A DNA stretch of 64,000 bases from Escherichia phage arall: the sequence record MN850584.1; one strand, written 5' to 3'. The notes beneath the pieces were generated by a model that was not told the DNA's origin, made no database searches, and saw only the letters and a list, made by a program, of their open reading frames with translations. The position numbers and the translations under genes are program-made. Positions 26,606 to 41,935 of the stretch are shown here, in pieces (position 1 is the first letter of the stretch; each line of letters begins with the position of its first letter).

Positions 26606-26616
26606 TCAATATCCTC

Positions 26617-27162
26617 TTAGTAATCATCATCCCAAGAAGATGCGTCGTAACGCTCTTCCTCTTCGAAATCCCAATTAATTTCTACTCCAAAATCTAAAAA
26701 CAATTTAACAATGTTTTCTGTAGAGTAGTATTTATCATAAGCATTAGCTAGTTCCCAATACTTGTCACTCAATTTTTTATATTTAGGATCATTATAGTCA
26801 TAATCTACTTTATAACCATAATCATACATCTCTTGTTTAGCTTTAAGCATAGCTTCTGGTGTAAGAAGATTAGGGAACGGACGATTTCTTTCTTTTAACT
26901 TAGAAGCAATCCAGTTTGCAACATTCGCCACTTCACCATCTCGATTATCACCTAAACAACTTGCATAATCTCCATCTTCGTAAGTGCCTAAATCCCCACA
27001 GACCACATGTACAATACTTGAATACGATCCACACGTTTCACAATCTGAAAAAGTGTCTACTGTTGTAATATCAATAGATAAAACTGGTAAAGCCATAGCT
27101 TCTTTCACACAAGCCTCCTCATATAATAACATATCATCAAAACCCATATATCCTCCACACAA
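26617..27162 (-). CDS. Highly acidic, Tyr/Asp-rich hypothetical protein (181 aa)
   Basis: ORF in operon; composition only. Confidence 0.55.
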   Translation of the reverse strand: MCGGYMGFDDMLLYEEACVKEAMALPVLSIDITTVDTFSDCETCGSYSSIVHVVCGDLGTYEDGDYASCLGDNRDGEVANVANWIASKLKERNRPFPNLLTPEAMLKAKQEMYDYGYKVDYDYNDPKYKKLSDKYWELANAYDKYYSTENIVKLFLDFGVEINWDFEEEERYDASSWDDDY

Positions 27163-27164
27163 AT

Positions 27165-27185
27165 AAAGCCCCTGATTGGGGCTTT
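27165..27185 (-). terminator. Intergenic hairpin AAAGCCCC-TGATT-GGGGCTTT (weak terminator/attenuator)
   Basis: 8-bp GC stem; poor T-run. Confidence 0.4.
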
Positions 27186-27201
27186 GGTTAAGTTTTATGG
27201 A

Positions 27202-27813
27202 TTATACCAGACTTTTAAGGTACTTGTCAAGGGCTTCTTGATCACCTTGACAAACATAGCAACGGAAGTCTTGAGCAGAAGGTTCTTTGTCCTCGTCCCA
27301 ATCCCAATAAACAGTACCTTTATAACGTGAACCTGGGAACTCGAAATATGCCACATGAGTAATATGGTGTGGGCCACCCCAAAATTCTGTAAAAGTAAAT
27401 TGAGGATACGCTGCTTTAACTGTATTCTCAAACCAAGTTTTACGATCTAATGCTTCGTTTATAAAATAAGCATGGCGTTCCATTTCATCCCAATCTTTCC
27501 AAACGCATTTTTCATCCAGAGAAAAAACAAAATCTTCACTGTTAAAATCGTCTGTATCTGATTCCAAAATATCATAATCATGTGCACTAGGTATCCACCA
27601 TCCAGCTTCTAATAGTGCTTTTGCAGGTACAAAACCTTTTTCAGCATATTGATCAAATTCTTTTACTCTACGTACAGTGCAGTATTCATCTTCACCACCA
27701 ATGTCCAGCAGACAAGCACCTTTGCGTCTTGCTGCAAGACCATGTGTATCAAAAACTACAACACTACCTTCACCATCTTCACGATCTACTTGATATGCAA
27801 CTTTTTGAGTCAT
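27202..27813 (-). CDS. Hypothetical protein (203 aa)
   Basis: ORF with ATG; no recognised motifs. Confidence 0.55.
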   Translation of the reverse strand: MTQKVAYQVDREDGEGSVVVFDTHGLAARRKGACLLDIGGEDEYCTVRRVKEFDQYAEKGFVPAKALLEAGWWIPSAHDYDILESDTDDFNSEDFVFSLDEKCVWKDWDEMERHAYFINEALDRKTWFENTVKAAYPQFTFTEFWGGPHHITHVAYFEFPGSRYKGTVYWDWDEDKEPSAQDFRCYVCQGDQEALDKYLKSLV

Positions 27814-27814
27814 A

Positions 27815-27952
27815 TTACCCCCAATGTATATGGGAAATTAACCAAAAGATAAATTCCCAAAAACACCAACCAAGAAAAGTTAATGGAATTATAAAAGCTA
27901 TCAGAGCAGTCTTCCAGCCTTTCCACAATGTTTCCACTATTCCTCCATACAT
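27815..27952 (-). CDS. Possible small membrane protein (45 aa) filling Dcm-27813 gap
   Basis: Hydrophobic ORF exactly spanning intergenic gap; weak RBS. Confidence 0.3.
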   Translation of the reverse strand: MYGGIVETLWKGWKTALIAFIIPLTFLGWCFWEFIFWLISHIHWG

Positions 27953-28926
27953 TTAAGAATATGTGCAATGACAGGTATAGTCCAACCGTTGCCTAACATC
28001 TTATATGCTTGTGTGTTACTACTCACTTTAAAGTAATCATCTGGAACACCTTGTAAGCGGCAACACTCTTTAACCGTTAACTTTCTGTAATGTACGCCTT
28101 CACTCAATTTTTCAAAGGCATCTAGATATCTTCCAGGTGGAATGTAAGCTAATAGTACGTCTTTCGGCACAGTCGTGAGGCAACGAGTTTTTTCACTGTC
28201 CTGAACTTCCAAACAATGTACCAAACGATCAGTTTTAGATGTACTACGTTTGCCATTCTCATTAATTCTACGCCCATATATTGCTGCCGGATAAAAAACC
28301 AGTTGTCTGCGACTCTTTTCAAAATACTGTTCTATATTACCACCTTTGGCATAATTTGCATCTATGCAATAAGCCTTATCTCTGTCTACAATACTATCAT
28401 CTTCAATAATATCTTGCAACACTTCATTGGTAATCTCCCAGGGTTTTATTTCCCAGTTGCACCAGTATAAACGTTGTCTATTCTGTGCCGTGAAATCTGC
28501 GGAGTTAATGAATACGGGATCAACACCTAAGTAACTTGTGATCACGTTTTCCCACTCCACTTTCATCTTAACGTTTTCAAGCATGAACTTAACATTAGGA
28601 TTAAACTTTTTAATATGTTCAAGAATTTCAACATATTCGAAGAATAGCTTAGATCGCGGATCTTGAAAGTTCAAACCCTTACCAGAAGAAGAGAAGCCTT
28701 GACACGGACTACCACCTAACAAAAGATCAATTTCTCCCCACGGGATATCCCATTCTCTCCATTTTGTAACATCACCTAACTGAATAATATCTGGAAAATT
28801 TGCTTGGCTTTCAGCTATGGCAAATTTGTCTAATTCTGAAGCATAATATGTATCTACTTCAATACCTGCACTTTTTAGCGCAAGCATTCCTCCTGACATA
28901 CCATCAAAAAGACTTAAAACTTTCAT
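27937..28926 (-). CDS. DNA (cytosine-5)-methyltransferase
   Basis: Motif I LFDGMSGG, motif IV GSPCQGFS, motif VI ENV, C-terminal NGWTIPV-like block. Confidence 0.85.
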   Translation of the reverse strand: MKVLSLFDGMSGGMLALKSAGIEVDTYYASELDKFAIAESQANFPDIIQLGDVTKWREWDIPWGEIDLLLGGSPCQGFSSSGKGLNFQDPRSKLFFEYVEILEHIKKFNPNVKFMLENVKMKVEWENVITSYLGVDPVFINSADFTAQNRQRLYWCNWEIKPWEITNEVLQDIIEDDSIVDRDKAYCIDANYAKGGNIEQYFEKSRRQLVFYPAAIYGRRINENGKRSTSKTDRLVHCLEVQDSEKTRCLTTVPKDVLLAYIPPGRYLDAFEKLSEGVHYRKLTVKECCRLQGVPDDYFKVSSNTQAYKMLGNGWTIPVIAHILKCMEE

Positions 28927-28928
28927 TA

Positions 28929-29339
28929 TTACTTCTTCTCCTTAACACTAGCTGGTAATTCTGCCTTGAGGCAGAAGTTTAAACGGTAAGCCTCATTCTC
29001 ATTTAAAAGTACAGATTCACACGATAACCAGAACAAGAGATCCTCAATACCAGGGCTGTTAAGCCAACAGTGCAGAAGAGAATGTTGTTCTATATCAATG
29101 TAATTTAGTAACAAGGCTTGTAAGGCGTAACTAGTTCCTGTCGTTTTTGCTTTTTCAAGGATGATATTGTGTTTACTAACAACTTTCTTCTTAAGACCAA
29201 ACCATTTATTAACAACAACAGTCTCTTCTTGTAGTTGTTTTCTTATTTTCTCACATTCTTTAACTACAATCTGCATCTTATCCACTGCTGATTGAAGTTG
29301 TTCTTTTGTTGGGTTTACAAAATAGTCACTATAGTACAT
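28929..29339 (-). CDS. Hypothetical protein (136 aa)
   Basis: ORF in operon. Confidence 0.55.
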   Translation of the reverse strand: MYYSDYFVNPTKEQLQSAVDKMQIVVKECEKIRKQLQEETVVVNKWFGLKKKVVSKHNIILEKAKTTGTSYALQALLLNYIDIEQHSLLHCWLNSPGIEDLLFWLSCESVLLNENEAYRLNFCLKAELPASVKEKK

Positions 29340-29396
29340 GCTAATCTTCTCCTCTTCTGTTTTTCTGTAGTTTATTCGAAAAAACTGGTGTTGTCA

Positions 29397-29424
29397 ACAA
29401 AAAACCCGCCGAAGCGGGTTTATA
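29397..29424 (-). terminator. Terminator hairpin AACCCGC-CGAA-GCGGGTT with T-run on minus strand, followed by TTGACA
   Basis: Variant of 111-133 family; internal terminator/promoter junction in minus block. Confidence 0.6.
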
Positions 29425-29682
29425 TTATTCTACAGGAACTTCTTCACCAAGAGAAACTTCTAAACGGAATGCTTTACTTTCAATACACTCACTACCTTTT
29501 AGAAAATCAAATTGCACTATAGACTGACTTAATAGGATAGATAGAATCACATCACAATCTTCACTAGGAGCTAGATGTTTGTATTCTTCCTTCAAGGTAA
29601 CATCATAAAAACATAAATCCCCTACTCCTAGTTCATCCCATCCTTCCCACGCATCTACAAAGTTAAACTCTAAACCTTTCAT
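29425..29682 (-). CDS. Hypothetical protein (85 aa)
   Basis: ORF. Confidence 0.5.
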   Translation of the reverse strand: MKGLEFNFVDAWEGWDELGVGDLCFYDVTLKEEYKHLAPSEDCDVILSILLSQSIVQFDFLKGSECIESKAFRLEVSLGEEVPVE

Positions 29683-30203
29683 ACAACCTCCTCGTAGTTG
29701 TTATTGTGTTTTACTGTCTCAACATACAATAAAGATTCCATCTGTAATACATTACCAGAAATAATAAACCCGTAAGCCATTTCAGATGTGTCTATATCAT
29801 ATGCCCCGTCTTCCGGTTTAGCAAAGTGTAAAACTATTTCATCTGGGTTTTCTTCATCCCATAGTTTAGAAATTTTCCGAACCAGAATGTTAGCTAAAAT
29901 AGTTGACATTCGGGATAAAGCTGTATCCTCGTATCTTTTAAAACCTAACCAATAGAGGTTAAGAATTTCTACTTCTTCTTGTGTTAAGTTTTTGTCTAAA
30001 GTAATCAGATCTGTAGGATACATCGTTTTTGTTGAACCTACTGTTACAAAACCTGGAGTGTTATGAAAAACAATCTTAACTTTATCACGTATAAAGTTTA
30101 AACCTTGTGCCTCAACTATATATTGTATTGTAGGTACAATATCGTTTGTTACATCAATAAAACTATCTTTAATGACGCTTATATTATTTCTGGACAAGAC
30201 CAT
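29679..30203 (-). CDS. Hypothetical protein (174 aa)
   Basis: ORF, overlapping stop/start. Confidence 0.55.
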   Translation of the reverse strand: MVLSRNNISVIKDSFIDVTNDIVPTIQYIVEAQGLNFIRDKVKIVFHNTPGFVTVGSTKTMYPTDLITLDKNLTQEEVEILNLYWLGFKRYEDTALSRMSTILANILVRKISKLWDEENPDEIVLHFAKPEDGAYDIDTSEMAYGFIISGNVLQMESLLYVETVKHNNNYEEVV

Positions 30204-30762
30204 TCTCCTCTAAAATAGGCTTAATAAATTCGAAAATTTGTTTTTTACTTTTATCTCGAATATTAAAACAAGGAACATTAAACTTTTTAGCCAACATCCA
30301 AGCTGTTCTTGTACCACCTAAAGGATCTCCATTTTTATCTGTATTTGCACAAGCTAAAAGAAAACAAGATGGTTTTGGATTCTCAAGATCTCTTCCAAGA
30401 ACTTGGTGGATATTTCTTTGATGTAATTTTTTAGCACCTTGAGATAATCTGTCCCAAGCTGGATGCAATTCTTTTGCATATTGCAAGGTTAGAGCATAGT
30501 TTACACTATCTGGTCTGTCAAGAACAATAACCTCTCCCTCTATTTCATTACCTTTAAACGAGAGCCAAGGGATGTATATTTCTTTCTTTGTATTGTTCCC
30601 ACTATCATATACCCCGCATTCAAATGCGGAATCTGCACCTTCTGCTTTACCAGATCGCAAAATGAACCATGTAGATAACCATTTTGCAACAGATACCATA
30701 GTATCCCATTCTTCGTCTGTAATATCTCTGCTACCAACACCTGTGTAGAATAAATCGCTCAT
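30184..30762 (-). CDS. DprA/Smf-like Rossmann-fold (SLOG-superfamily) protein
   Basis: Start at MSDLFY (RBS AAGGAG); TGVGSR ... SGKAEGAD pattern typical of DprA/LOG/SLOG nucleotide-binding folds; motif recall only. Confidence 0.4.
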   Translation of the reverse strand: MSDLFYTGVGSRDITDEEWDTMVSVAKWLSTWFILRSGKAEGADSAFECGVYDSGNNTKKEIYIPWLSFKGNEIEGEVIVLDRPDSVNYALTLQYAKELHPAWDRLSQGAKKLHQRNIHQVLGRDLENPKPSCFLLACANTDKNGDPLGGTRTAWMLAKKFNVPCFNIRDKSKKQIFEFIKPILEENGLVQK

Positions 30763-30772
30763 GGTTTTCTCC

Positions 30773-31093
30773 TTAACAAGTAATATTGGGAGTAACAATT
30801 GGATTAACAATTGGAGTAATAGGGTACGTAAACCAAGGGCTTCCAATTTCCCAAGGATAATAAGGTCTACGAGGATCGTATGGAGGAGTTACTTCAGGCT
30901 TTTTCCAAATCTCCGCTAATTGTTTCTTCCATTTATCCCTTGCTGTCTCATTATCTTCATCCAACTGTTCATCATTATCTTTTATTTCTGGTTTTGGAAA
31001 TAAAAGCTCTTTGACTAATTCAACATCTTCCGTCTCAATAGTAGTTTCTTTCGTAAGTTCTCCTACTGTTTCTTTAATTGTGATTTTATACAT
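30773..31093 (-). CDS. Pro/Glu-rich hypothetical protein (106 aa)
   Basis: ORF. Confidence 0.5.
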   Translation of the reverse strand: MYKITIKETVGELTKETTIETEDVELVKELLFPKPEIKDNDEQLDEDNETARDKWKKQLAEIWKKPEVTPPYDPRRPYYPWEIGSPWFTYPITPIVNPIVTPNITC

Positions 31094-31839
31094 TAGTCCT
31101 CCTCTAAAGTAGAATAAAATTGTAACGTATTTGAATCATCAAAATATGCAAAGGTTAAATTACCATTGAAGCAAGATCCTGTGTCCATATATACCCTATT
31201 ACTGCTAATCACAGGTTTAGGAACATAAGAATGCCCGTGAAATACATAATCTACTCCTGAAACCCTAGGAAGAAGAATCCCTTCAAGTGCGCAATCTATC
31301 ATATCACGATCCCACATTAAAGATTCTGTGAATTGAGAAACTTGCTCTTTATTCATATTCAAACAAAATGGCAAAACTTCTGTCACTGGTAAATGTTCCA
31401 AAACTGAAGGATACCCACCGTGAATAAAGCCTAGTTTCATATTACGATAATTGACAACAAGTACAACAGGTAAATCTTCTAGCATCAAAGCAAGAGCAGT
31501 TGCACCCTCTTCTCCACACTCGTCTAGAACTGTATGGCCTCCGTTCTGAAACCAACATTCGTAATATCGTCTATCACCTTCTAACAACCCTTTAATCATC
31601 ATATCTTCATGATTTCCACGAATACCATAACGATTTAGCTTTCTGGTGAATTCAACAACACAACGAAAATTCTGCTTGCCGCGATCTGTAAGATCTCCTA
31701 AAGATACAACAACATCTTGATCTCGGATACCTAAAGTATTAACACCTTTCTGGTACAAATCAAAGCAACCATGTAAATCACCAATAATAAACAGGTCTTG
31801 ATCATCTTTTACACTAATTTCTTGATATACTAACATCAA
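31093..31839 (-). CDS. Calcineurin-like metallophosphatase (Ser/Thr protein phosphatase family)
   Basis: GDLHG, GDLTDRG, GNHE motifs. Confidence 0.8.
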   Translation of the reverse strand: MMLVYQEISVKDDQDLFIIGDLHGCFDLYQKGVNTLGIRDQDVVVSLGDLTDRGKQNFRCVVEFTRKLNRYGIRGNHEDMMIKGLLEGDRRYYECWFQNGGHTVLDECGEEGATALALMLEDLPVVLVVNYRNMKLGFIHGGYPSVLEHLPVTEVLPFCLNMNKEQVSQFTESLMWDRDMIDCALEGILLPRVSGVDYVFHGHSYVPKPVISSNRVYMDTGSCFNGNLTFAYFDDSNTLQFYSTLEED

Positions 31840-32162
31840 CTCTCCTCAAAATCCATAAGTATAAAGATATTAACTTTACCTTCTATATTATGTTCTACAA
31901 CAAGATCTGCAAATTCTTTGTAGGCTTTTTCTTCTATTTGTTCAATGTGAGACGCTACATCTTTGTATATAGCGTCACCATCTACTTTAACAAGGAGGAA
32001 TAGAGATCTTACTTCAATCTCTTTATTTTTACGGGGTAGAAAATCGACGGCTTCTTGTATACGCCAGCCGAGATACCCTGGAGTCCTTTGAATATCCTCC
32101 AAATGACTTTCTAAGATTTCCCTTCCTTTGTCTATTAAAGCCTGTTCTGTCGTTATTTTCAT
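31836..32162 (-). CDS. Hypothetical protein (108 aa)
   Basis: ORF. Confidence 0.5.
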   Translation of the reverse strand: MKITTEQALIDKGREILESHLEDIQRTPGYLGWRIQEAVDFLPRKNKEIEVRSLFLLVKVDGDAIYKDVASHIEQIEEKAYKEFADLVVEHNIEGKVNIFILMDFEES

Positions 32163-32172
32163 CCCCTTCTCC

Positions 32173-32745
32173 TTAATGTGTTAATGAAACTGCGTAGCTA
32201 AACACAGGTTCAGATATTACATCGGCTACAGTAATAAAAACGTCTTCGTCTTGAGTTGTTTCTACACGACATACAGTTACACCATTCACCACGAATTCAA
32301 CGCAATGTGGAATATCTTCACAAACGAAGGTAGTGTAAGTAACACCCAAAGCATCATACAAAGATTTAACAGTGTTTGCAAGTGCCGCAGTTTCTTCTTT
32401 TTCTGAGACAATGAATGCTGTAACAACAAGATTGTTTGCATAGTTTAGACTGTCCTCTATAGCCAATGATTTACAAGGTAGTAATGCAAAATATTTACCT
32501 GGTTTAATCAGACCTGCTTCCCATTGATTCAAAATTGCCTGGGATGGTTTAGTAATATAAAACAGATTTTCACTTGGGTTATCAATATTACTTCTGGCGA
32601 TACAACGTGAAGGATTATTATTATCAAATACATGATCAAAATCTACACAAACAGGTAAACTGAAAGGTGTGAATTTTTTACCTAATAATCCTATGGCTGA
32701 TAATATGTTTGCTGTGCTTATCTTCCCGTTAAAAGCTAAACGCAT
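32173..32745 (-). CDS. Hypothetical protein (190 aa)
   Basis: ORF. Confidence 0.55.
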   Translation of the reverse strand: MRLAFNGKISTANILSAIGLLGKKFTPFSLPVCVDFDHVFDNNNPSRCIARSNIDNPSENLFYITKPSQAILNQWEAGLIKPGKYFALLPCKSLAIEDSLNYANNLVVTAFIVSEKEETAALANTVKSLYDALGVTYTTFVCEDIPHCVEFVVNGVTVCRVETTQDEDVFITVADVISEPVFSYAVSLTH

Positions 32746-32756
32746 ATTTAACTCCT

Positions 32757-32960
32757 TTAACTAGCAACCGTAACTTCCGAACTTTCTTCTTTCGTACTGT
32801 CTACGATATGCCTGGTGGCAATATACGAGACTTGCCAGTTACCATCTGGTGTAGTCTCAATAAGTACCCTATCTACTTCGAGAAAATGCAAAAATTCAAC
32901 CATCGCTCGCTTCGATAGGAATTGTTTTTTAACAGTCTCCTCAAAAGATTGAACTGCCAT
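32757..32960 (-). CDS. Hypothetical protein (67 aa)
   Basis: ORF. Confidence 0.45.
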   Translation of the reverse strand: MAVQSFEETVKKQFLSKRAMVEFLHFLEVDRVLIETTPDGNWQVSYIATRHIVDSTKEESSEVTVAS

Positions 32961-32969
32961 GTTTCCTCC

Positions 32970-33632
32970 TTATTTAATATTCAATTTTGCACAAAGACGT
33001 TGTACCGCTTTGGCATCGAACAAACTCCCACGAATAGTTCTCTTTCCTGATTCATTCAGATGTTTTGCAATCGTCATATATGGCGTTTTACAAGCTCTGT
33101 ATGCAACTAAAGAATCTTTTAAAGAAAGCGCAAACTCTTTTGAGCGTTTTGCTTCTTCCGTTTTCGTATAATCTGTTCTTTTGTATTTAGGGTTTGCTGC
33201 ACCAAGAAGCGTTCCCTTCGCTTTTGCTACTTTAAGGCTCTTCTTAACACGATCAGATATTGCACGAGCCTCTTCTTCTGCCAGAACTGCTAAAATATTT
33301 ATTATCATATTTTCAGCGGAGGGCATAGTTGCTATTCGTACATTAATCATCTCTAACAAGGTTGCAACAGAAGCTGTGTTACGTCCAAGACGGTCAACCT
33401 TAGCAACAACAAGTGTAGCACCTGTTTCTTTGCAAAGATTAACAGCTTTTACAAGCTCTCTACGTTGCTTCCAATCGCCTTTACCCGAATAAAACTCTGC
33501 AAAGCTACCTACAATAGTATAATTTTCTTGTGAATCCAGGAAGCGTTGGATATCTGCTTCCTGTGATTCTATACCATACTGGTTGCCTTGTTGTTTCTTC
33601 TTAGAAAGTCGATGATACAGTACAAACTTCAT
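32970..33632 (-). CDS. Serine recombinase (resolvase/invertase family) with C-terminal HTH
   Basis: YHRLSKKKQ (catalytic Ser region), VAKVDRLGRN hallmark, ~220 aa. Confidence 0.8.
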   Translation of the reverse strand: MKFVLYHRLSKKKQQGNQYGIESQEADIQRFLDSQENYTIVGSFAEFYSGKGDWKQRRELVKAVNLCKETGATLVVAKVDRLGRNTASVATLLEMINVRIATMPSAENMIINILAVLAEEEARAISDRVKKSLKVAKAKGTLLGAANPKYKRTDYTKTEEAKRSKEFALSLKDSLVAYRACKTPYMTIAKHLNESGKRTIRGSLFDAKAVQRLCAKLNIK

Positions 33633-33689
33633 AATACCCTCCTGTTCTGTTACAGGAAGTATGCACTACCTTAACGTTAAAGTCAACAG

Positions 33690-33905
33690 TTAAGTAGTGG
33701 TAATATCATCTTCTTGAATATCAGGATCAACTTCTGCAAAGATAGCTTCTACAGGAATTTCTTCACCTGCTATTCTAGAAAGAAGCACTGAACCAATAGC
33801 TTTTGCGTGTTCTTCGGATTCCGCATAAACATTAGTCCCTGTGTCTTTTTTCTTAGTTTCGTTAAAATATACCAGATAGTAATTGTATGCCATTATTCTT
33901 CCCAA
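33690..33905 (-). CDS. Hypothetical protein (71 aa)
   Basis: ORF. Confidence 0.5.
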   Translation of the reverse strand: MGRIMAYNYYLVYFNETKKKDTGTNVYAESEEHAKAIGSVLLSRIAGEEIPVEAIFAEVDPDIQEDDITTT

Positions 33906-34144
33906 TCGTTGTTACGAGCATTTTCAAGAACCTTGACAACTTCTGCATACTCTACAGCTAAACCAGCACACACTTCAGCTTGTTTTGCAATTGCTTGTTT
34001 AAAGAACATAGCGATTGCAACACTCTGTGTTGTGTGAATGTTATCTGCTTTAGTTGATACGTGAAGATCAAAATCTTCTTCATCAAAGGTGAGTTCCATA
34101 GTAACAATAAATTTCTCGGTCATAAAAATGCTCCTCTTAAACAA
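33893..34144 (-). CDS. Hypothetical protein (83 aa)
   Basis: ORF. Confidence 0.5.
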   Translation of the reverse strand: MFKRSIFMTEKFIVTMELTFDEEDFDLHVSTKADNIHTTQSVAIAMFFKQAIAKQAEVCAGLAVEYAEVVKVLENARNNDWEE

Positions 34145-34646
34145 AATAGAAAGGTTGAGTTAAACCCAGCCTGTTTTTTGGGTCGTAGACGTACCAAGCA
34201 TATGCTGTCTTATCAGTACCACCTGCAACAAAAGATGGTCGTTCAGAAAGAACAATCAAATTTGTTGGTGGATTCTGTTTATGGAATTCCCTTCGTTTAA
34301 TAGACTCTAGGAAACCAAGACGCAACAAGTATATGCAAACGTCTGCTTCTTTTAAGCTCTTTTGCAAGAACTCAAGTGCAAGTTTGAATGGGGGATTTGT
34401 GATTATAATATCCGGCTTAGTATACCATTCATGGTTAAAATAATCTTTCCCTTCTTCTAACTCACAATATTCTGATCCTTCTGGAAAATGTTGATAAATT
34501 GCAGCAGCAGCGCCTTTACACGGTTCTGCAAAAATAAAACCTTCTTCTTTAAGGTTATTAAAATCTATTACACTAAATAATGCATTTATACATTTTTGTG
34601 GAGTAGGATAGTAATCAGTTGGTGGACGATCATACTTATTTGCCAC
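34137..34646 (-). CDS. Putative N6-adenine (amino-) DNA methyltransferase, small
   Basis: IIITNPPF (motif IV NPPF) preceded by AEPCKGAAA (AdoMet-binding-like). Confidence 0.6.
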   Translation of the reverse strand: MANKYDRPPTDYYPTPQKCINALFSVIDFNNLKEEGFIFAEPCKGAAAAIYQHFPEGSEYCELEEGKDYFNHEWYTKPDIIITNPPFKLALEFLQKSLKEADVCIYLLRLGFLESIKRREFHKQNPPTNLIVLSERPSFVAGGTDKTAYAWYVYDPKNRLGLTQPFYFV

Positions 34647-35064
34647 TACTTAAAATCTCCTCTTTTGTGATTTCAGGGTCTTCTTCAAAAACCATAATAT
34701 CTCTTAAGAACGTTAATTCTTCCATAGATACTGGTATTGTATCTTCTTCTGTTTTTCGTTTACATAAATCGTCAAGAAAGTTTTTAAAGTTTTCTGACAA
34801 ATCGTAAAATTTCAACAGTTGATAATCACAGGAGGAGATCCTATCTAGTTCTAACATTCTTTCTAAGATATTTTCTGTGTTGCCATACAGCACACGAACT
34901 TCTCCGAAAGGGTTGACTGAATATTGTGAAGTTCTGAACCATCCCTTTTTAGATACAGTGTAACGCTGTTCTGCTAAACTTTCAATAAAATTTTTAGCTC
35001 TTTTACAGTTTTGTTCTAAAGAGTAGTAGGCTTTTTCTACAAAGGTTACAGGTACTGGTAACAT
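34636..35064 (-). CDS. Hypothetical protein (142 aa)
   Basis: ORF. Confidence 0.5.
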   Translation of the reverse strand: MLPVPVTFVEKAYYSLEQNCKRAKNFIESLAEQRYTVSKKGWFRTSQYSVNPFGEVRVLYGNTENILERMLELDRISSCDYQLLKFYDLSENFKNFLDDLCKRKTEEDTIPVSMEELTFLRDIMVFEEDPEITKEEILSSGK

Positions 35065-35105
35065 ATCTCCTCCTAATAAACCCCCTTGAGGGGGTTTGTG
35101 TTAGA

Positions 35106-35759
35106 TTAATTATCAGAGGATACTTTATCAAGTTTTTCAGAGACTGTCAATACTTTTTCTTGTGATTCTTTCATTTCTGCTAAAATACTTTCAGCTTCAT
35201 CACTATCAGGATCACCAGTCAACAGCATACTAATTAGTTGCTCCTTGCTGAAGTTCAGAATATCTTCCGCTGTTAGTTCCAGTTGTTCTTCGATCTCTTC
35301 AATAAAAGTTTCACCACCGGAAAAAGCATCTCGTAGTTTTGCAACTTCCATCGCTTCTTCTGGAGTTGCCCCTGCATCTAAAGCTGCTAAAGCAAAATCT
35401 GCCCCACTACCAACAGCATAATAATCTTCAGTTAAAGGATATGCTCGCGTTGGATTATTACCCTCGTGCATATAAATTTTACCGTCTGGGTGAACAACCA
35501 ATGCCACAAACTCTTCATCTTCTTTATCAGGATCTGACTGGATCACCAAACCTGGGATTGTCTCTTGTGCTGCTTGGCATTGTAAGTTTTGTTCGAACCA
35601 AGAAAAGAAAGTCAGGATAGAAGACAGACGTCCTGCACCACCAACAAGGTAATCCCCAATTTTACGCACTTTCTTGAAATTTAAAGTGTCTACACGACTA
35701 CCTACTGTTACTTTACCATCAGATAGAATTTTGTTATGTGTTGCAATAATTGTTGTCAT
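35106..35759 (-). CDS. HslV-like N-terminal-nucleophile (proteasome beta-type) peptidase
   Basis: MTTII (Thr right after Met), SDGKVTVG, KKVRKI, GGAGRLSSILTFFSWFE, AVGSGADFALAA match recalled HslV blocks; acidic C-terminal extension. Confidence 0.7.
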   Translation of the reverse strand: MTTIIATHNKILSDGKVTVGSRVDTLNFKKVRKIGDYLVGGAGRLSSILTFFSWFEQNLQCQAAQETIPGLVIQSDPDKEDEEFVALVVHPDGKIYMHEGNNPTRAYPLTEDYYAVGSGADFALAALDAGATPEEAMEVAKLRDAFSGGETFIEEIEEQLELTAEDILNFSKEQLISMLLTGDPDSDEAESILAEMKESQEKVLTVSEKLDKVSSDN

Positions 35760-36250
35760 TGTACTTCCTCCTGTAGTGTTTTAAGGACTGCTTTACCACC
35801 GCTTACATATTTACGGAGGTAATCAATAGCTCTTAGTGTTTCTTTATCCACAAGAATTTTATTAGTTCTTGTCAATGGATGATTCAGTAAGTCACTGCAA
35901 TTTCTTACTAACATAGATTTCTTGTGAAAGATACTGCTAAGAAAAAGAAGTTTAGAATCTTCTTCATCAATCAGGAGTAATTCTGAATTAGACCCAGCTA
36001 CATTTATTATACACTCAAACAAGCCTTCTTGACTATCAGATAATTCCTGGTAATATTTAGTTAGCCAATCCTCTCCTTTTAACCAACTAAAAAACATCTG
36101 AACTTTTTGCAAAGTTGTCATGTTCTCTAAACGAAGAGATATTTCTTTTTCAATCTTGTCAATATAAATCTGTCTAAACTCATTCGGCTTAACTAAGCCA
36201 GCTTGATAGCATTCATCAATACCATTGCGATCAATCTCAATTAGCGTCAT
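35756..36250 (-). CDS. Hypothetical protein (164 aa)
   Basis: ORF; not HslU-like. Confidence 0.55.
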   Translation of the reverse strand: MTLIEIDRNGIDECYQAGLVKPNEFRQIYIDKIEKEISLRLENMTTLQKVQMFFSWLKGEDWLTKYYQELSDSQEGLFECIINVAGSNSELLLIDEEDSKLLFLSSIFHKKSMLVRNCSDLLNHPLTRTNKILVDKETLRAIDYLRKYVSGGKAVLKTLQEEVQ

Positions 36251-36286
36251 TTAACCTCCATAATAGGCATCCTTGCCTTGTAATTA

Positions 36287-37039
36287 TTAATATACTTCCG
36301 TGATGAACTGAGACAAACGGGAACGTTGGTTATCAGCAGTTGTCATTTCAACATAACCAATAAAATCTACAATAGCTTCCCTTTCTCCTTCTTCGTTAAT
36401 AGGAACAACACGATCTAACAAATCACCTAACCCGTTAGCTCTTCGTTTAATTGCATATGTTTGATTAACATCGCCCATAATGACAATACGTGTATTAAGA
36501 CCTGCTCGCTCAAGGAGAAGTTTTACTGTATTTGGTGACATAAGTTGAACTTCATCAATAAGAATAATACTGTTATCCCACGTAGCACCTAGTGCATAGT
36601 TTGGAATATTAAGTTCAATTTTGCCACTTGCAATATCGTTTTCCAATTTATTTGCAGTCATAAACTGTTGGAAAATTCTTTTAGTTGATTCGTAGTGTGC
36701 TGCTAGTTTATCAGTCTTATCTCCAGATAAGAAACCAATTTGATCATCACCTACTTCTGTCGGGTTTTTAAGGAAAATCAACTTTCTGAAATCACCAGCT
36801 TTAAGCATTTGCAATGCTTTCCATAGTGCTGTTGTCGTTTTTCCTGTTCCTGCTGGGGCATTAACAATGGTTAAATCATTCCAAACCATGCTTCTTACAA
36901 TAGCTTCTTGATTCCCAACAGGGGTAAATTCATCAAGACGGTAATCATCATTTCCTACTGCTTTAGCCGCATAACGACTGGCACGTTTGTCATCATTGGC
37001 TGCTGATTGACGACGAGCCTTTGCGGTTTTATTTCCCAT
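36287..37039 (-). CDS. phoH: PhoH-like ATPase
   Basis: Walker A VNAPAGTGKTT, Walker B ILIDEVQ, typical PhoH size. Confidence 0.85.
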   Translation of the reverse strand: MGNKTAKARRQSAANDDKRASRYAAKAVGNDDYRLDEFTPVGNQEAIVRSMVWNDLTIVNAPAGTGKTTTALWKALQMLKAGDFRKLIFLKNPTEVGDDQIGFLSGDKTDKLAAHYESTKRIFQQFMTANKLENDIASGKIELNIPNYALGATWDNSIILIDEVQLMSPNTVKLLLERAGLNTRIVIMGDVNQTYAIKRRANGLGDLLDRVVPINEEGEREAIVDFIGYVEMTTADNQRSRLSQFITEVY

Positions 37040-37055
37040 GTTTGCACTCCTTATA

Positions 37056-37078
37056 AAAGGGGCTTTCGCCCCTTTGTT
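37056..37078. terminator. Hairpin AAAGGGGC-TTTC-GCCCCTTT (copy 2 of 3), bidirectional-type
   Basis: Between lysozyme stop and phoH start. Confidence 0.6.
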
Positions 37079-37578
37079 TAGTTATAAGCGTCTAATGTTC
37101 CAGTTTTAAGTACCTGAATTACACGCTCTGCGCGATTAGGCGTTTGGCGATACCATTTACTTTTACGTAAATTTATAGAGGCTTGAGTATAATATGAATT
37201 ACTCACTAAAGTCAAGCTATTTTTGAAAGATTCTGCACCTTTCAATCCCATTTGAAATACCATATTGATAATAGCCATTTTACGATTAGGACTTACTTTA
37301 TCGTAAATAGGAGATAATATGGTACTTGAATGGATTTGTTGTATCGCTTTCTTTACGTCACTTTCAAAGATTCTTCTAGCTTCCGCTTCAGTAATAACTC
37401 CATTGGTTTTTCTACCTACTAAGTTATCAAGAATGCGTATAGCTTCTGCTTTATCTTTGCGTTTTGTCAGAAGGTGTCCAATACCAACTGTCCAATACCC
37501 TTCGGTATCAGGATATACAGTTAGCTTTAGTCCTTCATCAAAACGTAACATATCAAACACATCAACTACTTTAGCCAT
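37078..37578 (-). CDS. T4-type lysozyme (GH24 endolysin)
   Basis: DMLRFDEGLKLTVYPDTEGYWTVGIGHLLTK...WYRQTPNRAERV closely parallels recalled T4 gpe. Confidence 0.9.
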   Translation of the reverse strand: MAKVVDVFDMLRFDEGLKLTVYPDTEGYWTVGIGHLLTKRKDKAEAIRILDNLVGRKTNGVITEAEARRIFESDVKKAIQQIHSSTILSPIYDKVSPNRKMAIINMVFQMGLKGAESFKNSLTLVSNSYYTQASINLRKSKWYRQTPNRAERVIQVLKTGTLDAYN

Positions 37579-37590
37579 GTTTTCCTTATA

Positions 37591-37734
37591 TCAGTCGCCC
37601 TCCCCATGATCTAGCTCTTGAAACAGTAGGTGTTCAGGAGACATTTCACGTTTAGGCTTCGTCTTTTTAGTTTGGGACTTAAGCTCTGTTGCCAAAGCAC
37701 GAGAAAAGATCTTACGTTTCTGTTTACCTTTCAT
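37591..37734 (-). CDS. Possible small lysine-rich protein (47 aa)
   Basis: ORF in gap between glutaredoxin and lysozyme. Confidence 0.3.
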   Translation of the reverse strand: MKGKQKRKIFSRALATELKSQTKKTKPKREMSPEHLLFQELDHGEGD

Positions 37735-37738
37735 ATTG

Positions 37739-38005
37739 TTACTCCGCAATCTGAGCCATGAATTCACGTAGTTCAGAAAAACCTCCTACGTGGGTTAGCT
37801 GTTCACCATCTTCCACAAAAATCTGAGGAAATGTGCGTGGTAGAACACCTGTTTTCTCTAAAACCAGATTCTGAATCTGATCTAAAGAATAGTCTTCATC
37901 TAAGGTAAGATATTTAAAATCCTGTTCACGCTGTTCTAGTAGAATCTTAGCGTTAGTGCAGAAAGGACAATTTGGTTTACCGTAGATAATAAAATTCATT
38001 TTCAC
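37739..38005 (-). CDS. Glutaredoxin-like protein (CPFC active site)
   Basis: IIYGKPNCPFCTNAK, ~88 aa thioredoxin fold size. Confidence 0.8.
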   Translation of the reverse strand: MKMNFIIYGKPNCPFCTNAKILLEQREQDFKYLTLDEDYSLDQIQNLVLEKTGVLPRTFPQIFVEDGEQLTHVGGFSELREFMAQIAE

Positions 38006-38832
38006 TCCTTGTTTAAAAGTATAGTTAAAGTTCTTACAATACCGCTATCAACACTTCGCGGATTTAAAGTAGGATCTGTTTTTAAATAAGATGTTGCTGG
38101 TCTGACTGCTTTGGAATTATAGGTTGAAGCAGATACAGGATTAACTGTAACAGATAAATCTATAACAAGAAATATCTTTCGTGCAAAATCATACCAAGAA
38201 ATATAATCTGCACCTGCATAGTGTACAACTTTACTATTTACACCATCTTTTACAAGTTTAAAAATTGTTTCTGCAAGATCAGGTGCATAAGTAGGACATG
38301 ACAAATGATCACATACTACATTAAATTCTTTTTGACCACCGTTGTAGCGTTCCAACATAGTTTTCAAAAAGTTATGTCCAAATTCACTATAAACAGAAGC
38401 TGTTCTGATAATAAGTGCTGTAGGACAAACTGTTTGTACTAAAGTTTCACCTAATTGTTTACTGTAACCGTAGGTGTTCAAGGGGTTTGTTTTACTATCT
38501 TCTGTGCCAGCAACATGCCCATCAAAAACATAGTCTGTTGAAATATGTACAAACTGTATCAGTAAATCATTACATGCTTTGGCAATGTTTGTTGCACCGT
38601 ATGCATTAACATTTATACAGGTGTTAACATCTTCTTCAGCTTTATCTACTGCCGTGTAAGCCGCACAATTCACAACAACATCAGGCACGTGCTGTACAAG
38701 ACTATTCATAACATCTTTAAAGTTGGTAATGTCTATATCACTTGCTTCAATCAAAATAACATCTTCGGGCGCAACTTTTGCCAAAGACTGTCCTAATTGA
38801 CCTTTTGAACCAAAGATTAAAAATTTTGTCAA
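38002..38832 (-). CDS. rmlD: dTDP-4-dehydrorhamnose reductase
   Basis: N-terminal GxxGQLG Rossmann, HISTDYVFDG, YGYSK. Confidence 0.85.
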   Translation of the reverse strand: MTKFLIFGSKGQLGQSLAKVAPEDVILIEASDIDITNFKDVMNSLVQHVPDVVVNCAAYTAVDKAEEDVNTCINVNAYGATNIAKACNDLLIQFVHISTDYVFDGHVAGTEDSKTNPLNTYGYSKQLGETLVQTVCPTALIIRTASVYSEFGHNFLKTMLERYNGGQKEFNVVCDHLSCPTYAPDLAETIFKLVKDGVNSKVVHYAGADYISWYDFARKIFLVIDLSVTVNPVSASTYNSKAVRPATSYLKTDPTLNPRSVDSGIVRTLTILLNKE

Positions 38833-39383
38833 AATATGATCTCCTTTAGTGTTTTGGCTTGCTGATCTTTTTGTGACAAGATAGGTTTAAAATTAATATC
38901 ATTAAAGATTAAATCAAAACCCCAATCAATATTGATATCTGGATCATTCCACGCAAGACTACACTCTGAAGTCGGATCGTAATATTCTGTACATTTATAT
39001 TCAAAATCAGCAATGTCACTAATCACAACAAAGCCATGAGCGAAACCAGGAGGAATCCAAAATTGTGTTTTATTCTTTTCAGATAAGAGAACACCTACCC
39101 ATTCTCCAAATGTTGGACTACCAACCCTAATATCTACAGCAACATCATAAACTTCACCACGAACACAACGTACTAACTTCCCTTGTGGGTTTTTCTTTTG
39201 AAAATGAAGCCCACGTAGAACTCCTCGAATAGAACGTGAATGGTTATCTTGGACAAAGTTTTGTTTACCTATGTATTGATCATATAAAGCCTGATTAAAA
39301 CTTTCTAAGAAAAAACCACGTTCATCTCCGTAAACGTCAGGTTGAATGATCAACAAATCTTCGATTTTTGTTGCTTGAATCAT
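38829..39383 (-). CDS. rmlC: dTDP-4-dehydrorhamnose 3,5-epimerase
   Basis: GDERGFFLESF and cupin-like blocks, 184 aa. Confidence 0.85.
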   Translation of the reverse strand: MIQATKIEDLLIIQPDVYGDERGFFLESFNQALYDQYIGKQNFVQDNHSRSIRGVLRGLHFQKKNPQGKLVRCVRGEVYDVAVDIRVGSPTFGEWVGVLLSEKNKTQFWIPPGFAHGFVVISDIADFEYKCTEYYDPTSECSLAWNDPDINIDWGFDLIFNDINFKPILSQKDQQAKTLKEIIF

Positions 39384-39395
39384 TTAATTTCCCCT

Positions 39396-40265
39396 TTATT
39401 TTAATTTAAGTAAATACTTACCGTAGTCTGTTTTACTTAAAACCTCTCCAGAACTTTTTACAGAGTCTAAAGTAATCCATTCATTTTTAAAAGCAATCTC
39501 TTCCAGGCATGCAACCTTCATACCTTGTTGCTTTTCTATTGCATGAACAAATTGAGATGCTTCCATAAGACTTTCATGTGTTCCTGTATCCAGCCAAGTG
39601 AAACCTCTTCCTAGTTTACAGACACGTAAAGCCTTTTCTTTCCAGTACATCTCATTTATATCTGTAATCTCTAACTCCCCTCTAGCAGAAGGTTTAACGC
39701 TTTTAGCTTTCTGTACAACAGAATTATCGTAAAAGTACAAGCCTGTGATTGCATAGTTGCTTTTTGGTGCTTTTGGTTTTTCTTCAATACTCACCACTGT
39801 ACCTTCAGAATCAAACTCAACAACACCAAATCTTTCAGGATCATTTACGTGATACCCAAAAATATTAGCTCCACCATTCTTTTCAATATGTTCTTTAGCA
39901 GAATCTAAAATGCTACCAAAACTCTGACCAAAGAATAAATTATCACCTAGCACAAGTGCTACAGAATCTTCACCAATAAAGTTCTCACCAATAATAAACG
40001 CTTCTGCTAAACCTCTTGGGCTATCCTGTATTGCATACTGTAAGGAAATACCAAAAGAAGAACCATCACCTAGAAGATTTACAAAATTAATTTGATCTTC
40101 TGGTGTTGTAATTATTAGTATTTCCCTAATTCCAGAAAGCATTAGGACAGAGAGTGGATAATAAATCATAGGCTTATCATAAATTGGTAATAGTTGTTTA
40201 CTAACCCCTTTAGTAACTGGGTAAAGTCTTGTTCCACTACCACCTGCTAAGATAATACCTTTCAT
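39396..40265 (-). CDS. rmlA: Glucose-1-phosphate thymidylyltransferase
   Basis: [52 protein letters not shown] near-identical to recalled RmlA N-terminus. Confidence 0.92.
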
Positions 40266-40273
40266 ACTCCTCC

Positions 40274-41263: not shown

Positions 41264-41457
41264 TTAGTCTCCTTCCAATTATTCCCTTCAGTAAAAATAA
41301 TACCTTCATAAAACAACCATCTGGAACCTTTTTCAACAGGAACAGGAATCTCTTCTTCAGTAAAGTTATAAACCTCTCTAGCATCTTCTAAAAGTGATGC
41401 AAATGTTTTTGGACTTACTGTTACGCGAGGAGCATTGATCAGTTGATCTAGCATCAT
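41260..41457 (-). CDS. Hypothetical protein (65 aa)
   Basis: Start at MMLDQ with RBS GGAGGA; stop overlaps rmlB start. Confidence 0.45.
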   Translation of the reverse strand: MMLDQLINAPRVTVSPKTFASLLEDAREVYNFTEEEIPVPVEKGSRWLFYEGIIFTEGNNWKETK

Positions 41458-41470
41458 TCTACTATCCTCC

Positions 41471-41797: not shown

Positions 41798-41933
41798 TAT
41801 CTTCCTCCTCTTCTTTTTCTTCTGTATGAACGAAACCTAAGCCGTTACAATTCCAACAAGGAATAAATTGTTCCATACTAACAATAAAATTCCCAGTGCC
41901 GCCGCAGATAGGACAAATACTTACATCGTCCAT
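41787..41933 (-). CDS. Possible small zinc-ribbon protein (48 aa; CPICGG...CWNCNG)
   Basis: Two CxxC pairs; fills gap, no strong RBS. Confidence 0.3.
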   Translation of the reverse strand: MDDVSICPICGGTGNFIVSMEQFIPCWNCNGLGFVHTEEKEEEEDSGG

Positions 41934-41935
41934 TA

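What the first reader, a model, noticed from the sequence alone, without database searches (positions are those of the whole stretch)
32970..33632. Small serine recombinase inside a lytic-type genome
This is a resolvase/invertase-type serine recombinase (VDRLGRN, catalytic Ser region) of about 220 aa. It is too small for a large serine integrase and there are no other lysogeny genes in view. It could drive an invertible switch elsewhere in the genome, for example a tail-fibre region, or resolve concatemers.
Basis: partly seen in the sequence, partly recalled or inferred. Interest (0 to 1): 0.55.

Follow-up and report, generated by a model that had tools for sequence, protein, structure and literature searches.

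The report
Orphan serine recombinase in phi92-like phage
The gene is a real, apparently active small DNA recombinase (Phi92_gp053) kept by a whole subfamily of strictly lytic E. coli and Klebsiella phages, but nothing in these genomes looks like the flip-switch it was proposed to drive, so its DNA target remains unknown.

Summary
Window 32970-33632 (minus strand) encodes a 220-aa serine recombinase with an intact, conserved active site. The window is a phi92-like Justusliebigvirus, and the gene is Phi92_gp053, already annotated 'DNA invertase' in RefSeq.

New here:
- The C-terminal DNA-binding domain is not the resolvase/invertase HTH_7. It is the first, helical part of the 'recombinase domain' of large serine integrases, with no zinc ribbon or coiled coil.
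- The gene is fixed across Stephanstirmvirinae (100% to 57% identity), and relatives occur in other large lytic phages.
- It carries its own positionally conserved sigma70-like promoter.
- It sits at different loci in Justusliebigvirus and Phapecoctavirus.
- One Klebsiella phage keeps the C-domain but has a Gin-like catalytic domain.

The invertible-switch reading is not supported. There are no repeat-flanked segments, and the tail-fibre region is collinear in five genomes. The one module found in both orientations (31 vs 24 genomes, outside the window) has no paired sites and imprecise junctions.

The closest non-phage relatives lie on small plasmids beside Rep/Par genes. My best guess, at low confidence, is resolution- or cyclisation-type recombination at a single unidentified site. 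This is a known kind of enzyme with an open substrate question, of moderate-to-low interest.

The parts
32970..33632 (-). Complete CDS of the 220-aa small serine recombinase (orthologue of Phi92_gp053 / YP_009012384), stop codon included
   Evidence: ORF list. Pfam PF00239 E=8.4e-22. 100% identical protein in phi92 and more than 15 other genomes. RefSeq annotation 'DNA invertase'.
33210..33632 (-). Catalytic domain plus E-helix (residues 1-141), with Y6/R8/S10 and D80/R81/R84 (gamma-delta D67/R68/R71 equivalents), E121 and R128
   Evidence: Alignment A1 invariant and near-invariant columns. AlphaFold model pLDDT 88.6 with an alpha/beta core and helix 108-138. Foldseek matches to Sin, TP901-1 and ISC1926 catalytic domains.
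32973..33209 (-). C-terminal DNA-binding domain (residues 142-220): linker plus helical HTH domain, related to the first part of the large-serine-integrase 'recombinase domain'
33658..33686 (-). Sigma70-like promoter element TTGACT-N17-CATACT in the 57-bp gap upstream of the gene. Inferred to be the gene's own promoter, used by host RNA polymerase.
   Evidence: Consensus scan and sequence. An equivalent element sits at the same position upstream of the orthologues in Klebsiella phage phi1_175008 (TTGACA-N17-CATACT) and phAPEC8/Mt1B1_P17 (TTGACA-N17-TAAAGT), even though the gene lies at another locus there. Function is inferred, not shown.
33639..33643 (-). Ribosome-binding site AGGAG
   Evidence: Annotated RBS in the phi92 RefSeq record at the equivalent position. 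Sequence shown.
33671..33680 (.). Perfect 10-bp palindrome TTAACGTTAA in the promoter spacer. Possible operator; significance unknown.
   Evidence: Single copy in the window; 8 of 100 shuffles give at least one. Not conserved in the Klebsiella or Phapecoctavirus orthologue promoters.

Best explanation
Window 32970-33632 encodes a catalytically competent small serine recombinase, the orthologue of Phi92_gp053. It consists of a resolvase-type catalytic domain and E-helix fused to a short helix-turn-helix domain. That domain is homologous to the first part of the 'recombinase domain' of large serine integrases, and the protein has no zinc-ribbon or coiled-coil module. It is a fixed gene of the lytic subfamily Stephanstirmvirinae and is probably transcribed from its own host-type promoter. 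It is not the invertase of a repeat-flanked switch. The most likely mechanism (inferred, not shown) is that dimers bind one short, still unidentified site in phage DNA. They then carry out deletion/resolution-type or intermolecular exchange between directly repeated copies of that site. Such copies exist only transiently, on replicating multimers or concatemers, or possibly at the two ends of the terminally repeated genome. This would be analogous to plasmid multimer resolution or to Cre-lox cyclisation of P1.
For: Shown:
- Intact ORF and Pfam match.
- Catalytic residues conserved down to ~30% identity.
- Confident two-domain model.
- C-domain relates to PF07508 and the large-serine-integrase recombinase domain, not HTH_7.
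- Present in all 55 Justusliebigvirus records at 99-100% identity, in Klebsiella relatives at 78%, in Phapecoctavirus at 57%, and in Vibrio/Shewanella and T4-like lytic contexts at 30-50%.
- Promoter-like element conserved in position even where the gene has moved.
- Klebsiella phage 05F01 keeps the phi92-type C-domain but has a Gin-like catalytic domain with its catalytic serine motif retained. This argues that catalysis combined with this DNA specificity is what selection preserves.

Supporting the resolution-type reading:
- Full-length ~35% homologues sit on small plasmids, including a 7.3-kb plasmid with Rep, ParA and RHH genes.
- The same ~220-aa architecture is abundant.
- A single-copy site would explain why no repeated site is detectable.
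- The genome has fixed ends with ~342-bp direct terminal repeats, according to PMC12210895, mapped to window ~13148-13489.
Against: - No res-like array lies next to the gene. The upstream gap is 57 bp and the downstream gap 9 bp, and local repeats are at chance level.
- The terminal repeat contains no strong dyad and shares nothing above chance with the recombinase promoter region.
- A phage that packages from concatemers has no obvious need for multimer resolution, which could even be counter-productive.
- The plasmid analogy rests on ~35% identity and on gene context only.
- The Schickermooser copy carries ~10 indels, so the gene may be dispensable in culture, unless these are sequencing errors.
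- No experiment of any kind exists.
Confidence: 0.35

Rival explanations
1. It is a DNA invertase, as annotated, that flips a segment of the phage genome. The only candidate seen is the ~1-kb divergent-promoter module (inny 120786-121765, about 2.3-3.3 kb beyond the window's left edge). That module occurs in both orientations within the genus and alternately fuses or separates two small genes.
For: The module is the only non-collinear piece besides the recombinase gene itself in five whole genomes. 31 of 55 genus members have one arrangement and 24 the other, with the same BLAST breakpoint in all 24. Two records of the species VEcB differ in arrangement. Flipped genomes nest among unflipped haplotypes on a tree of the module. 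In one arrangement, inny_188 is a fusion of two otherwise separate PHROG families.
Against: There is no inverted-repeat similarity between the two junctions in any of five genomes; scores equal shuffled controls. The junctions cannot be interconverted by a clean flip: there are 12-15 unrelated bases on the left, and an 18-nt linker plus loss of a start codon on the right. The module is mosaic, so the tree is unreliable. Identity to inny is 93.3-96.3% (module only) for the flipped type and 95.8-100% (whole query; EC.P2 92.3%) for the unflipped type, so sequence tracks arrangement only loosely. The protein lacks the invertase HTH_7 domain and is only remotely similar to Gin/Hin. Nothing invertible lies near the gene.
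Confidence: 0.1
2. The enzyme acts on host DNA rather than phage DNA. It would be an early-expressed recombinase that rearranges or breaks a host site as part of takeover or counter-defence, for example by interfering with host invertible elements.
For: It has a host-type promoter and sits in an early/auxiliary block with methyltransferases, Sir2, NinI phosphatase and HslV-like genes. No phage-borne pair of sites was found. Recent work shows that host Pin-type invertases affect phage adsorption (PMC12529663 and bioRxiv 10.1101/2025.03.28.646004).
Against: There is no positive evidence. Orthologues occur in phages of Escherichia, Klebsiella, Citrobacter, Vibrio and Shewanella, which would need a conserved host target. 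The DNA-binding domain differs from that of Pin/Gin, so cross-reaction with their sites is unlikely.
Confidence: 0.12
3. It is a selfish or recently mobile single-gene cassette (promoter plus recombinase) that moves within and between phage genomes, with little benefit to the phage.
For: There is a precise presence/absence pattern. In Phapecoctavirus the syntenic gp54/gp52 gap holds only a terminator hairpin, and the recombinase lies ~15 kb away on the other strand. In the phi92 type the reciprocal site is empty. One lineage has a mosaic catalytic domain. The Schickermooser copy may be decayed.
Against: The gene is fixed at one locus and 99-100% identical in all 55 Justusliebigvirus records, and present in essentially all Phapecoctavirus records. 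There are no flanking repeats or target duplications. Its 57% divergence falls within the range of its co-diverging neighbours, 32-93%. The active site is under long-term conservation.
Confidence: 0.13
4. It is a domesticated DNA-binding regulator that no longer recombines DNA.
For: No substrate was found. A palindrome lies in its own promoter in the phi92 type.
Against: All catalytic residues are conserved over deep divergence. The lineage that replaced the catalytic domain replaced it with another serine-recombinase domain that keeps its catalytic serine motif, not with nothing. The palindrome is not conserved.
Confidence: 0.05

Closest known systems
Phi92_gp053 (YP_009012384), 'DNA invertase' of Escherichia phage phi92, and its orthologues in Justusliebigvirus and Phapecoctavirus
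   Same: The protein is 100% identical, with the same neighbours (gp54 / gp52 / HisRS-like / NinI phosphatase).
   Different: Nothing differs; this is the same gene in a sister isolate. The public name is a homology-based guess. No functional study was found, and some records mislabel it or deny its presence.
Small resolvases Sin, Tn3 and gamma-delta resolvase
   Same: The catalytic domain fold, the nucleophile and Arg/Asp motifs, the E-helix and the overall size of ~200 aa match.
   Different: The C-terminal domain is PF07508-like, not HTH_7. There is no adjacent multi-subsite res and no transposase or plasmid context. Single-sequence E-values are only ~1e-5.
DNA invertases Gin, Hin, Cin and Pin
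   Same: They belong to the same superfamily and are phage-borne, which is the basis for the public annotation.
   Different: The match is very weak (Gin 3uj3 E=8e-4), whereas the 05F01 mosaic orthologue matches Gin at 3e-21. There is no HTH_7, no neighbouring repeat-flanked segment, and the tail-fibre genes are co-oriented and collinear.
Large serine integrases (Bxb1, phiC31, SPbeta/YokA, TP901-1)
   Same: These are the only proteins that align structurally across both domains. The C-domain corresponds to the first helical part of their recombinase domain.
   Different: The protein is less than half their length and lacks the rest of the recombinase domain, the zinc-ribbon domain and the coiled coil that controls directionality. 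There is no sign of integration: the gene is absent from E. coli genomes.
Unnamed ~220-aa 'recombinase family proteins' on small plasmids (e.g. Phaeobacter pP18_i, Synechococcus pIITB3_2)
   Same: They show a full-length alignment at ~35% identity, so the same two-domain architecture. The plasmid context with Rep, ParA and RHH genes suggests multimer resolution.
   Different: They are on a different replicon type and are uncharacterised themselves, so the functional inference is by context only.
Cre-loxP of phage P1 (functional analogy only; a tyrosine recombinase)
   Same: It is a phage-encoded site-specific recombinase that cyclises terminally redundant incoming DNA and resolves dimers (established knowledge).
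   Different: It belongs to an unrelated enzyme family, and P1 is temperate. No lox-like site has been found in the phi92-type terminal repeat.

Membership tests
Serine recombinase superfamily (PF00239 catalytic domain) | Significant match to the Resolvase N-terminal domain model | tested here: met
   E=8.4e-22, 78.3 bits against a cutoff of 23.3, residues 4-141. All 34 aligned relatives match.
Serine recombinase superfamily (PF00239 catalytic domain) | Nucleophilic Ser in the Y-x-R-x-S motif, plus the D-R-x-x-R motif and E-helix acidic/Arg residues | tested here: met
   Y6, R8, S10, D80, R81, R84, E121 and R128 are invariant or >=90% conserved.
Serine recombinase superfamily (PF00239 catalytic domain) | Alpha/beta catalytic fold followed by a long E-helix | tested here: met
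   AlphaFold model pLDDT 88.6 with helix 108-138. Foldseek probability 1.00 to Sin, TP901-1 and ISC1926 catalytic domains.
Serine recombinase superfamily (PF00239 catalytic domain) | Actual DNA cleavage and strand exchange | not testable with these tools
   This needs biochemistry or genetics.
DNA invertase subfamily (Hin/Gin/Cin/Pin) | C-terminal HTH_7-type DNA-binding domain | tested here: not met
   HTH_7 is not among the listed Pfam families for the 34 members at E<=1; 24 hit PF07508 instead.
DNA invertase subfamily (Hin/Gin/Cin/Pin) | Invertible segment flanked by inverted recombination sites, adjacent to or containing the gene | tested here: not met
   There are no significant inverted repeats within +-6 kb or genome-wide. 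The 15-nt IR candidate is never inverted in 55 genomes. The dimorphic module has no paired sites.
DNA invertase subfamily (Hin/Gin/Cin/Pin) | Close sequence relationship to characterised invertases | tested here: not met
   Gin matches at E=8e-4 only. By contrast, the 05F01 catalytic domain matches at 3e-21.
DNA invertase subfamily (Hin/Gin/Cin/Pin) | Fis-dependent recombinational enhancer | not tested
   No segment exists in which to look for one.
Tn3/gamma-delta/Sin-type resolvases | Multi-subsite res region next to the gene | tested here: not met
   The upstream gap is 57 bp and holds only a promoter-like element. The downstream gap is 9 bp. There are no local repeat families above chance.
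Tn3/gamma-delta/Sin-type resolvases | Transposon or plasmid context | tested here: not met
   The neighbours are phage early/auxiliary genes.
Large serine recombinases / integrases | Complete recombinase domain plus zinc-ribbon domain with embedded coiled coil; length above ~400 aa | tested here: not met
   The protein is 220 aa. Only the first helical part of PF07508 is represented, and the model shows four C-terminal helices and nothing more.
Large serine recombinases / integrases | Integration into a host attB (prophage state) | tested here: not met
   The gene has no copy in 5,426 complete E. coli genomes. The phage family is described as lytic.
Small serine recombinases with a recombinase-domain-type HTH (unnamed; plasmid and phage members) | ~215-240 aa, with end-to-end alignment of both the catalytic and the C-terminal domain | tested here: met
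   Most of the top 150 representatives are 215-240 aa and align over query residues ~2-217. Plasmid homologues cover 96-100% of the query.

The most novel reading that the evidence does not exclude
A whole subfamily of strictly lytic, terminally repeated myophages may depend on an early site-specific serine recombinase to process its own genome. It could cyclise incoming DNA, or exchange between genome copies at a single cryptic site. Less likely, it could flip the divergent-promoter module by a non-canonical reaction that needs no inverted repeats. Either would add a programmed site-specific recombination step to a lytic replication cycle, where none is currently recognised for this group.
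Probability: 0.12. Interest if true: 0.7.

Novelty: new member of a known kind. Interest (0 to 1): 0.33.

Why it matters
phi92- and phAPEC8-like phages are widely proposed for therapy. Genome reports routinely state that they carry no recombinases, or flag this gene as a possible lysogeny marker. Showing that it is a conserved, probably active enzyme of a non-integrase type, never seen integrated in E. coli, helps safety assessments. It also defines a concrete open question: what does a site-specific recombinase do in a purely lytic cycle? The minimal architecture, a catalytic domain plus a short integrase-type HTH, could also interest recombinase engineers if a short target site is found.

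Tried and rejected
1. Long or near-perfect inverted repeats in the window and the whole inny genome. Only terminator hairpins, chance pairs and one pair of diverged inverted paralogues turned up.
2. A genome-wide 12+2+12 palindrome scan. It gave 21 sites against ~9 in shuffles; many are GC-rich terminator-like hairpins and no recurring site family emerged.
3. Local repeats within +-6 kb of the gene. These were at chance level.
4. The palindrome TTAACGTTAA as an operator or site. It is single-copy and not conserved in other genera.
5. A 25-kb megablast inversion screen. It was uninterpretable because of distant hits and record-end splits, so I replaced it with local whole-genome alignment.
6. 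The 15-nt perfect IR pair flanking 117 bp (12699-12845) as an inverton. The orientation is the same in all 55 genomes.
7. The dimorphic module as a recombinase substrate. It has no paired sites and its junctions are imprecise. A tree of the module was confounded by mosaicism.
8. A site in the terminal repeat, or motifs shared with the recombinase promoter. None rose above chance.
9. Rfam over the window. There were no matches.
10. My guess that the 188N gene is DUF2829-like. Pfam does not support it.
11. The Schickermooser 'truncated' copy as proof of dispensability. It cannot be distinguished from sequencing error.

Full report
**What is there.** The ORF is exactly as described: 32970..33632 on the minus strand, ATG start, 220 aa. 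It matches the Pfam Resolvase catalytic domain well above threshold (E=8.4e-22, residues 4-141), and also PHROG 125 'DNA invertase' and PHROG 95 'integrase'.

The window is a phi92-like Escherichia phage (Justusliebigvirus, Stephanstirmvirinae). Over the 5-kb stretch around the gene (window 31000-36000) it is 99.9% identical to phage inny, and over the aligned part of the window about 98.9%. The gene is the orthologue of Phi92_gp053, which RefSeq already calls 'DNA invertase', so the gene itself is not a discovery. No functional study was found. One genome paper on the sister genus states that no specific recombinase is present, and several records label the gene 'methionine ABC transporter ATP-binding protein'.

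**Is it a live enzyme?** I aligned 34 relatives reaching ~30% identity. D80, R81 and R84 (the D67/R68/R71 equivalents of gamma-delta resolvase), E121 and R128 are invariant. Y6, R8 and the nucleophile S10 are >=90% conserved, the exception being an N-terminally truncated entry. The AlphaFold model is confident (pLDDT 88.6). It shows the alpha/beta catalytic core, a long E-helix (108-138), a linker and a helical C-terminal domain. Nothing suggests a dead protein.

**What kind of serine recombinase?** By sequence it is only remotely like characterised small recombinases: Sin, Tn3 and gamma-delta at E~1e-5, and Gin at 8e-4.
- The C-terminal domain is not the HTH_7 of resolvases and invertases. 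24 of 34 family members hit Pfam PF07508 'Recombinase', the domain that follows the catalytic domain in large serine integrases.
- Only large serine integrases (Bxb1, phiC31, SPbeta-type) align structurally over both domains.
- A C-domain profile finds the SPbeta integrase recombinase domain as its first natural PDB hit, at a weak E=0.028.

There is no zinc ribbon or coiled coil. So the architecture is a catalytic domain plus the first helical part of the integrase recombinase domain. This architecture is common: 2,556 50%-identity clusters match at E<=1e-10, and most top hits are 215-240 aa and align end to end. The close, phage-specific clade is small, with 20 clusters at E<=1e-30.

**Distribution and evolution.**
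- The protein is 99-100% identical in all 55 Justusliebigvirus records, 78% in Klebsiella relatives, ~57% in Phapecoctavirus and 50% in Citrobacter phage Tr1. It is 30-49% identical in 130-150-kb Vibrio and Shewanella phages.
- Metagenomic homologues sit on phage-sized contigs. One, at 38% identity, lies next to NAMPT, rIIB, ligase and Dam genes, a large lytic-phage context.
- The gene has no copy in 5,426 complete E. coli genomes.
- In Klebsiella phage phi1_175008 the neighbourhood is the same as here.
- In Phapecoctavirus the syntenic block HslV / MTase / gp55 / gp54 / gp52 / HisRS-like / NinI is intact but lacks the recombinase, and a terminator hairpin fills the gap. The recombinase lies ~15 kb away on the other strand, among small early genes. 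The reciprocal site in the phi92 type is empty.
- No flanking repeats mark either insertion.
- Its 57% identity lies within the range of its neighbours (32-93%), so descent with relocation and independent acquisition cannot be separated.
- A sigma70-like element sits at the same place upstream of the gene at both loci: TTGACT/TTGACA-N17-CATACT or TAAAGT. From this I infer that the gene carries its own host-type promoter.
- Klebsiella phage 05F01 has a mosaic orthologue. Its C-domain is phi92-like, while its catalytic domain is Gin-like (PDB 4m6f, E=3e-21) and keeps its catalytic serine motif. A swap that preserves catalysis plus this DNA-binding domain argues that real recombination at a conserved kind of target is under selection.
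- The Schickermooser copy has ~10 indels relative to phAPEC8. That is either decay or sequencing error.

**Testing the invertible-switch idea.**
- Inverted repeats in the window and in the whole 147-kb inny genome are terminator hairpins or chance-level matches. A palindromic-site scan yields no recurring family, and nothing stands out within +-6 kb of the gene.
- The tail-fibre genes are all co-oriented.
- I aligned inny against three other Justusliebigvirus genomes and one Phapecoctavirus genome. The only pieces in opposite orientation were the recombinase gene itself (in Phapecoctavirus) and a ~1-kb module at the divergent strand switch (inny ~120786-121765), about 2.3-3.3 kb beyond the window's left edge.
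- That module contains two small genes, the divergent promoter gap and a ~67-codon gene. It exists in two arrangements: 31 of 55 genus members have one and 24 the other, and Phapecoctavirus shares the second.
- In the inny arrangement the small gene is fused in frame to the next gene. PHROG confirms that inny_188 is a fusion of two separate families.

This is the best candidate for a switch, but it fails the tests for serine-recombinase inversion. The two junctions share no inverted-repeat similarity in any of five genomes; scores equal shuffles. The junctions are also not interconvertible by a clean flip, because of extra bases, a novel linker and a lost start codon. The module is mosaic, so a tree cannot decide between one and several events. 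I read it as an old rearrangement maintained as two alleles, and I leave ~10% for recombinase involvement.

A second candidate was a perfect 15-nt IR pair around 117 bp in the terminal non-coding region. It has the same orientation in all 55 genomes.

**What it most likely does.** Full-length ~35% homologues occur on plasmids, including a 6.4-kb and a 7.3-kb plasmid. The latter carries Rep, ParA and an RHH protein, the classic setting for a multimer resolvase. The phage has fixed ends with ~342-bp direct terminal repeats according to PhageTerm analysis of BME3 (PMC12210895), and I mapped them to window ~13148-13489. An enzyme that acts on a single site would leave no repeat signature in an assembled genome, which fits the negative searches.

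I therefore favour, at about one chance in three, resolution- or cyclisation-type exchange at one unidentified phage site. Against this:
- There is no res-like array next to the gene.
- The terminal repeat has no strong dyad and no motif shared with the recombinase promoter.
- A concatemer-packaging phage has no obvious need for resolution.

Action on host DNA, a selfish cassette and a non-catalytic regulator remain as rivals.

**Verdict.** The family assignment is correct at superfamily level, but 'invertase' is not supported. The proposed tail-fibre switch is not supported, and a resolution-type role remains possible but unproven. This is a member of a known enzyme kind, already annotated, with an unusual but not rare domain make-up and an open substrate question.

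Noticed in passing
Outside the window: inny MN850601 ~120786-121765 (L004:20786-21765), about 2.3-3.3 kb left of window position 1: A ~1-kb divergent-promoter module (genes 186 and 187, the promoter gap and the small gene 188N) occurs in two orientations: 31 vs 24 of 55 Justusliebigvirus genomes, and Phapecoctavirus has the second type. In one orientation 188N is fused in frame to 188C (phrog_3474 + phrog_11295). The junctions have no inverted repeats and are imprecise.
   Followed up: yes
window 11990-13750: A 1.75-kb gene-free, AT-rich region (GC ~0.33) contains the reported physical genome ends. The BME3 342-bp direct terminal repeat maps to ~13148-13489. By my coordinate arithmetic, several public records (W22, PD114, phi92, UAB_1) end near ~13150-13170 or ~13420-13440, close to but not at the two DTR boundaries.
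   Followed up: partly
window 2351-2387, 12235-12247, 12293-12305, 13151-13163, 13346-13358: The palindrome AATGATAATCATT (<=1 mismatch) occurs at 6 loci against 0.46 expected, and 0 of 100 shuffles reach this. By my own count against the Fur-box consensus GATAATGATAATCATTATC (recalled from memory), the copy at 13148-13166 matches 17 of 19 positions and sits at the terminal-repeat boundary. This may mean host Fur binding or iron-responsive control of early promoters, or a terminase or origin signal.
   Followed up: partly
window 12670-12845: A cluster of nested palindromes: a hairpin at 12670-12704, perfect 12-bp arms at 12728-12754, a further dyad at 12772-12828, all bracketed by a perfect 15-nt inverted repeat (12699-12713 / 12831-12845). 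The part at 12652-12787 is ~82% conserved in Phapecoctavirus, with a compensatory GC->CG change in the first hairpin. It has no Rfam match and is never inverted. It is a candidate origin or packaging element.
   Followed up: partly
L008:2408-3079 (Klebsiella phage 05F01, LC483177): A mosaic recombinase. Its C-terminal domain is phi92-like, fused to a Gin-like catalytic domain (PDB 4m6f, E=3e-21). It has Ser in place of the conserved Asp of the D-R-L-G-R motif.
   Followed up: yes
L007:2300-3046 (Escherichia phage Schickermooser, NC_048196): The recombinase gene is broken by ~10 indels relative to phAPEC8, and only the C-terminal 128 codons are annotated. It is either a natural pseudogene or a sequencing artefact.
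   Followed up: partly
inny 106313-107473 (-) and 123019-124146 (+); the latter ends at about window position 92: Two diverged paralogous genes (one annotated ATPase) lie in inverted orientation 16 kb apart. They were detected as collinear inverted-repeat patches.
   Followed up: no
Public records MG065639, MG065645, MG065656, MG065689, MG065650: Five records named 'Campylobacter phage' with host C. jejuni (the one fetched, A145/MG065645, is flagged UNVERIFIED) are ~98-99% identical to E. coli Justusliebigvirus or Phapecoctavirus genomes, so the host attribution looks doubtful.
   Followed up: no
L014:30284-30955 and records MT496970, OR352955, OR352956, OR062529: The recombinase orthologue is annotated 'methionine ABC transporter ATP-binding protein' in several Phapecoctavirus records, which is an annotation error that has propagated between records.
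   Followed up: partly
inny 119446-120549 (L004:19446-20549), outside the window: A 367-aa gene with HTH_36 and MUG113 (GIY-YIG-related) domains is missing from VEcB, A145 and PD211. It looks like a mobile insertion next to the dimorphic module.
   Followed up: partly
window 26000-42000 (minus-strand block around the finding): The recombinase shares a co-directional block with two DNA methyltransferases, a Sir2-like protein, a DprA-like protein, NinI phosphatase, an HslV-like peptidase, PhoH and a complete dTDP-rhamnose pathway. These are auxiliary and takeover functions rather than core replication genes.
   Followed up: no
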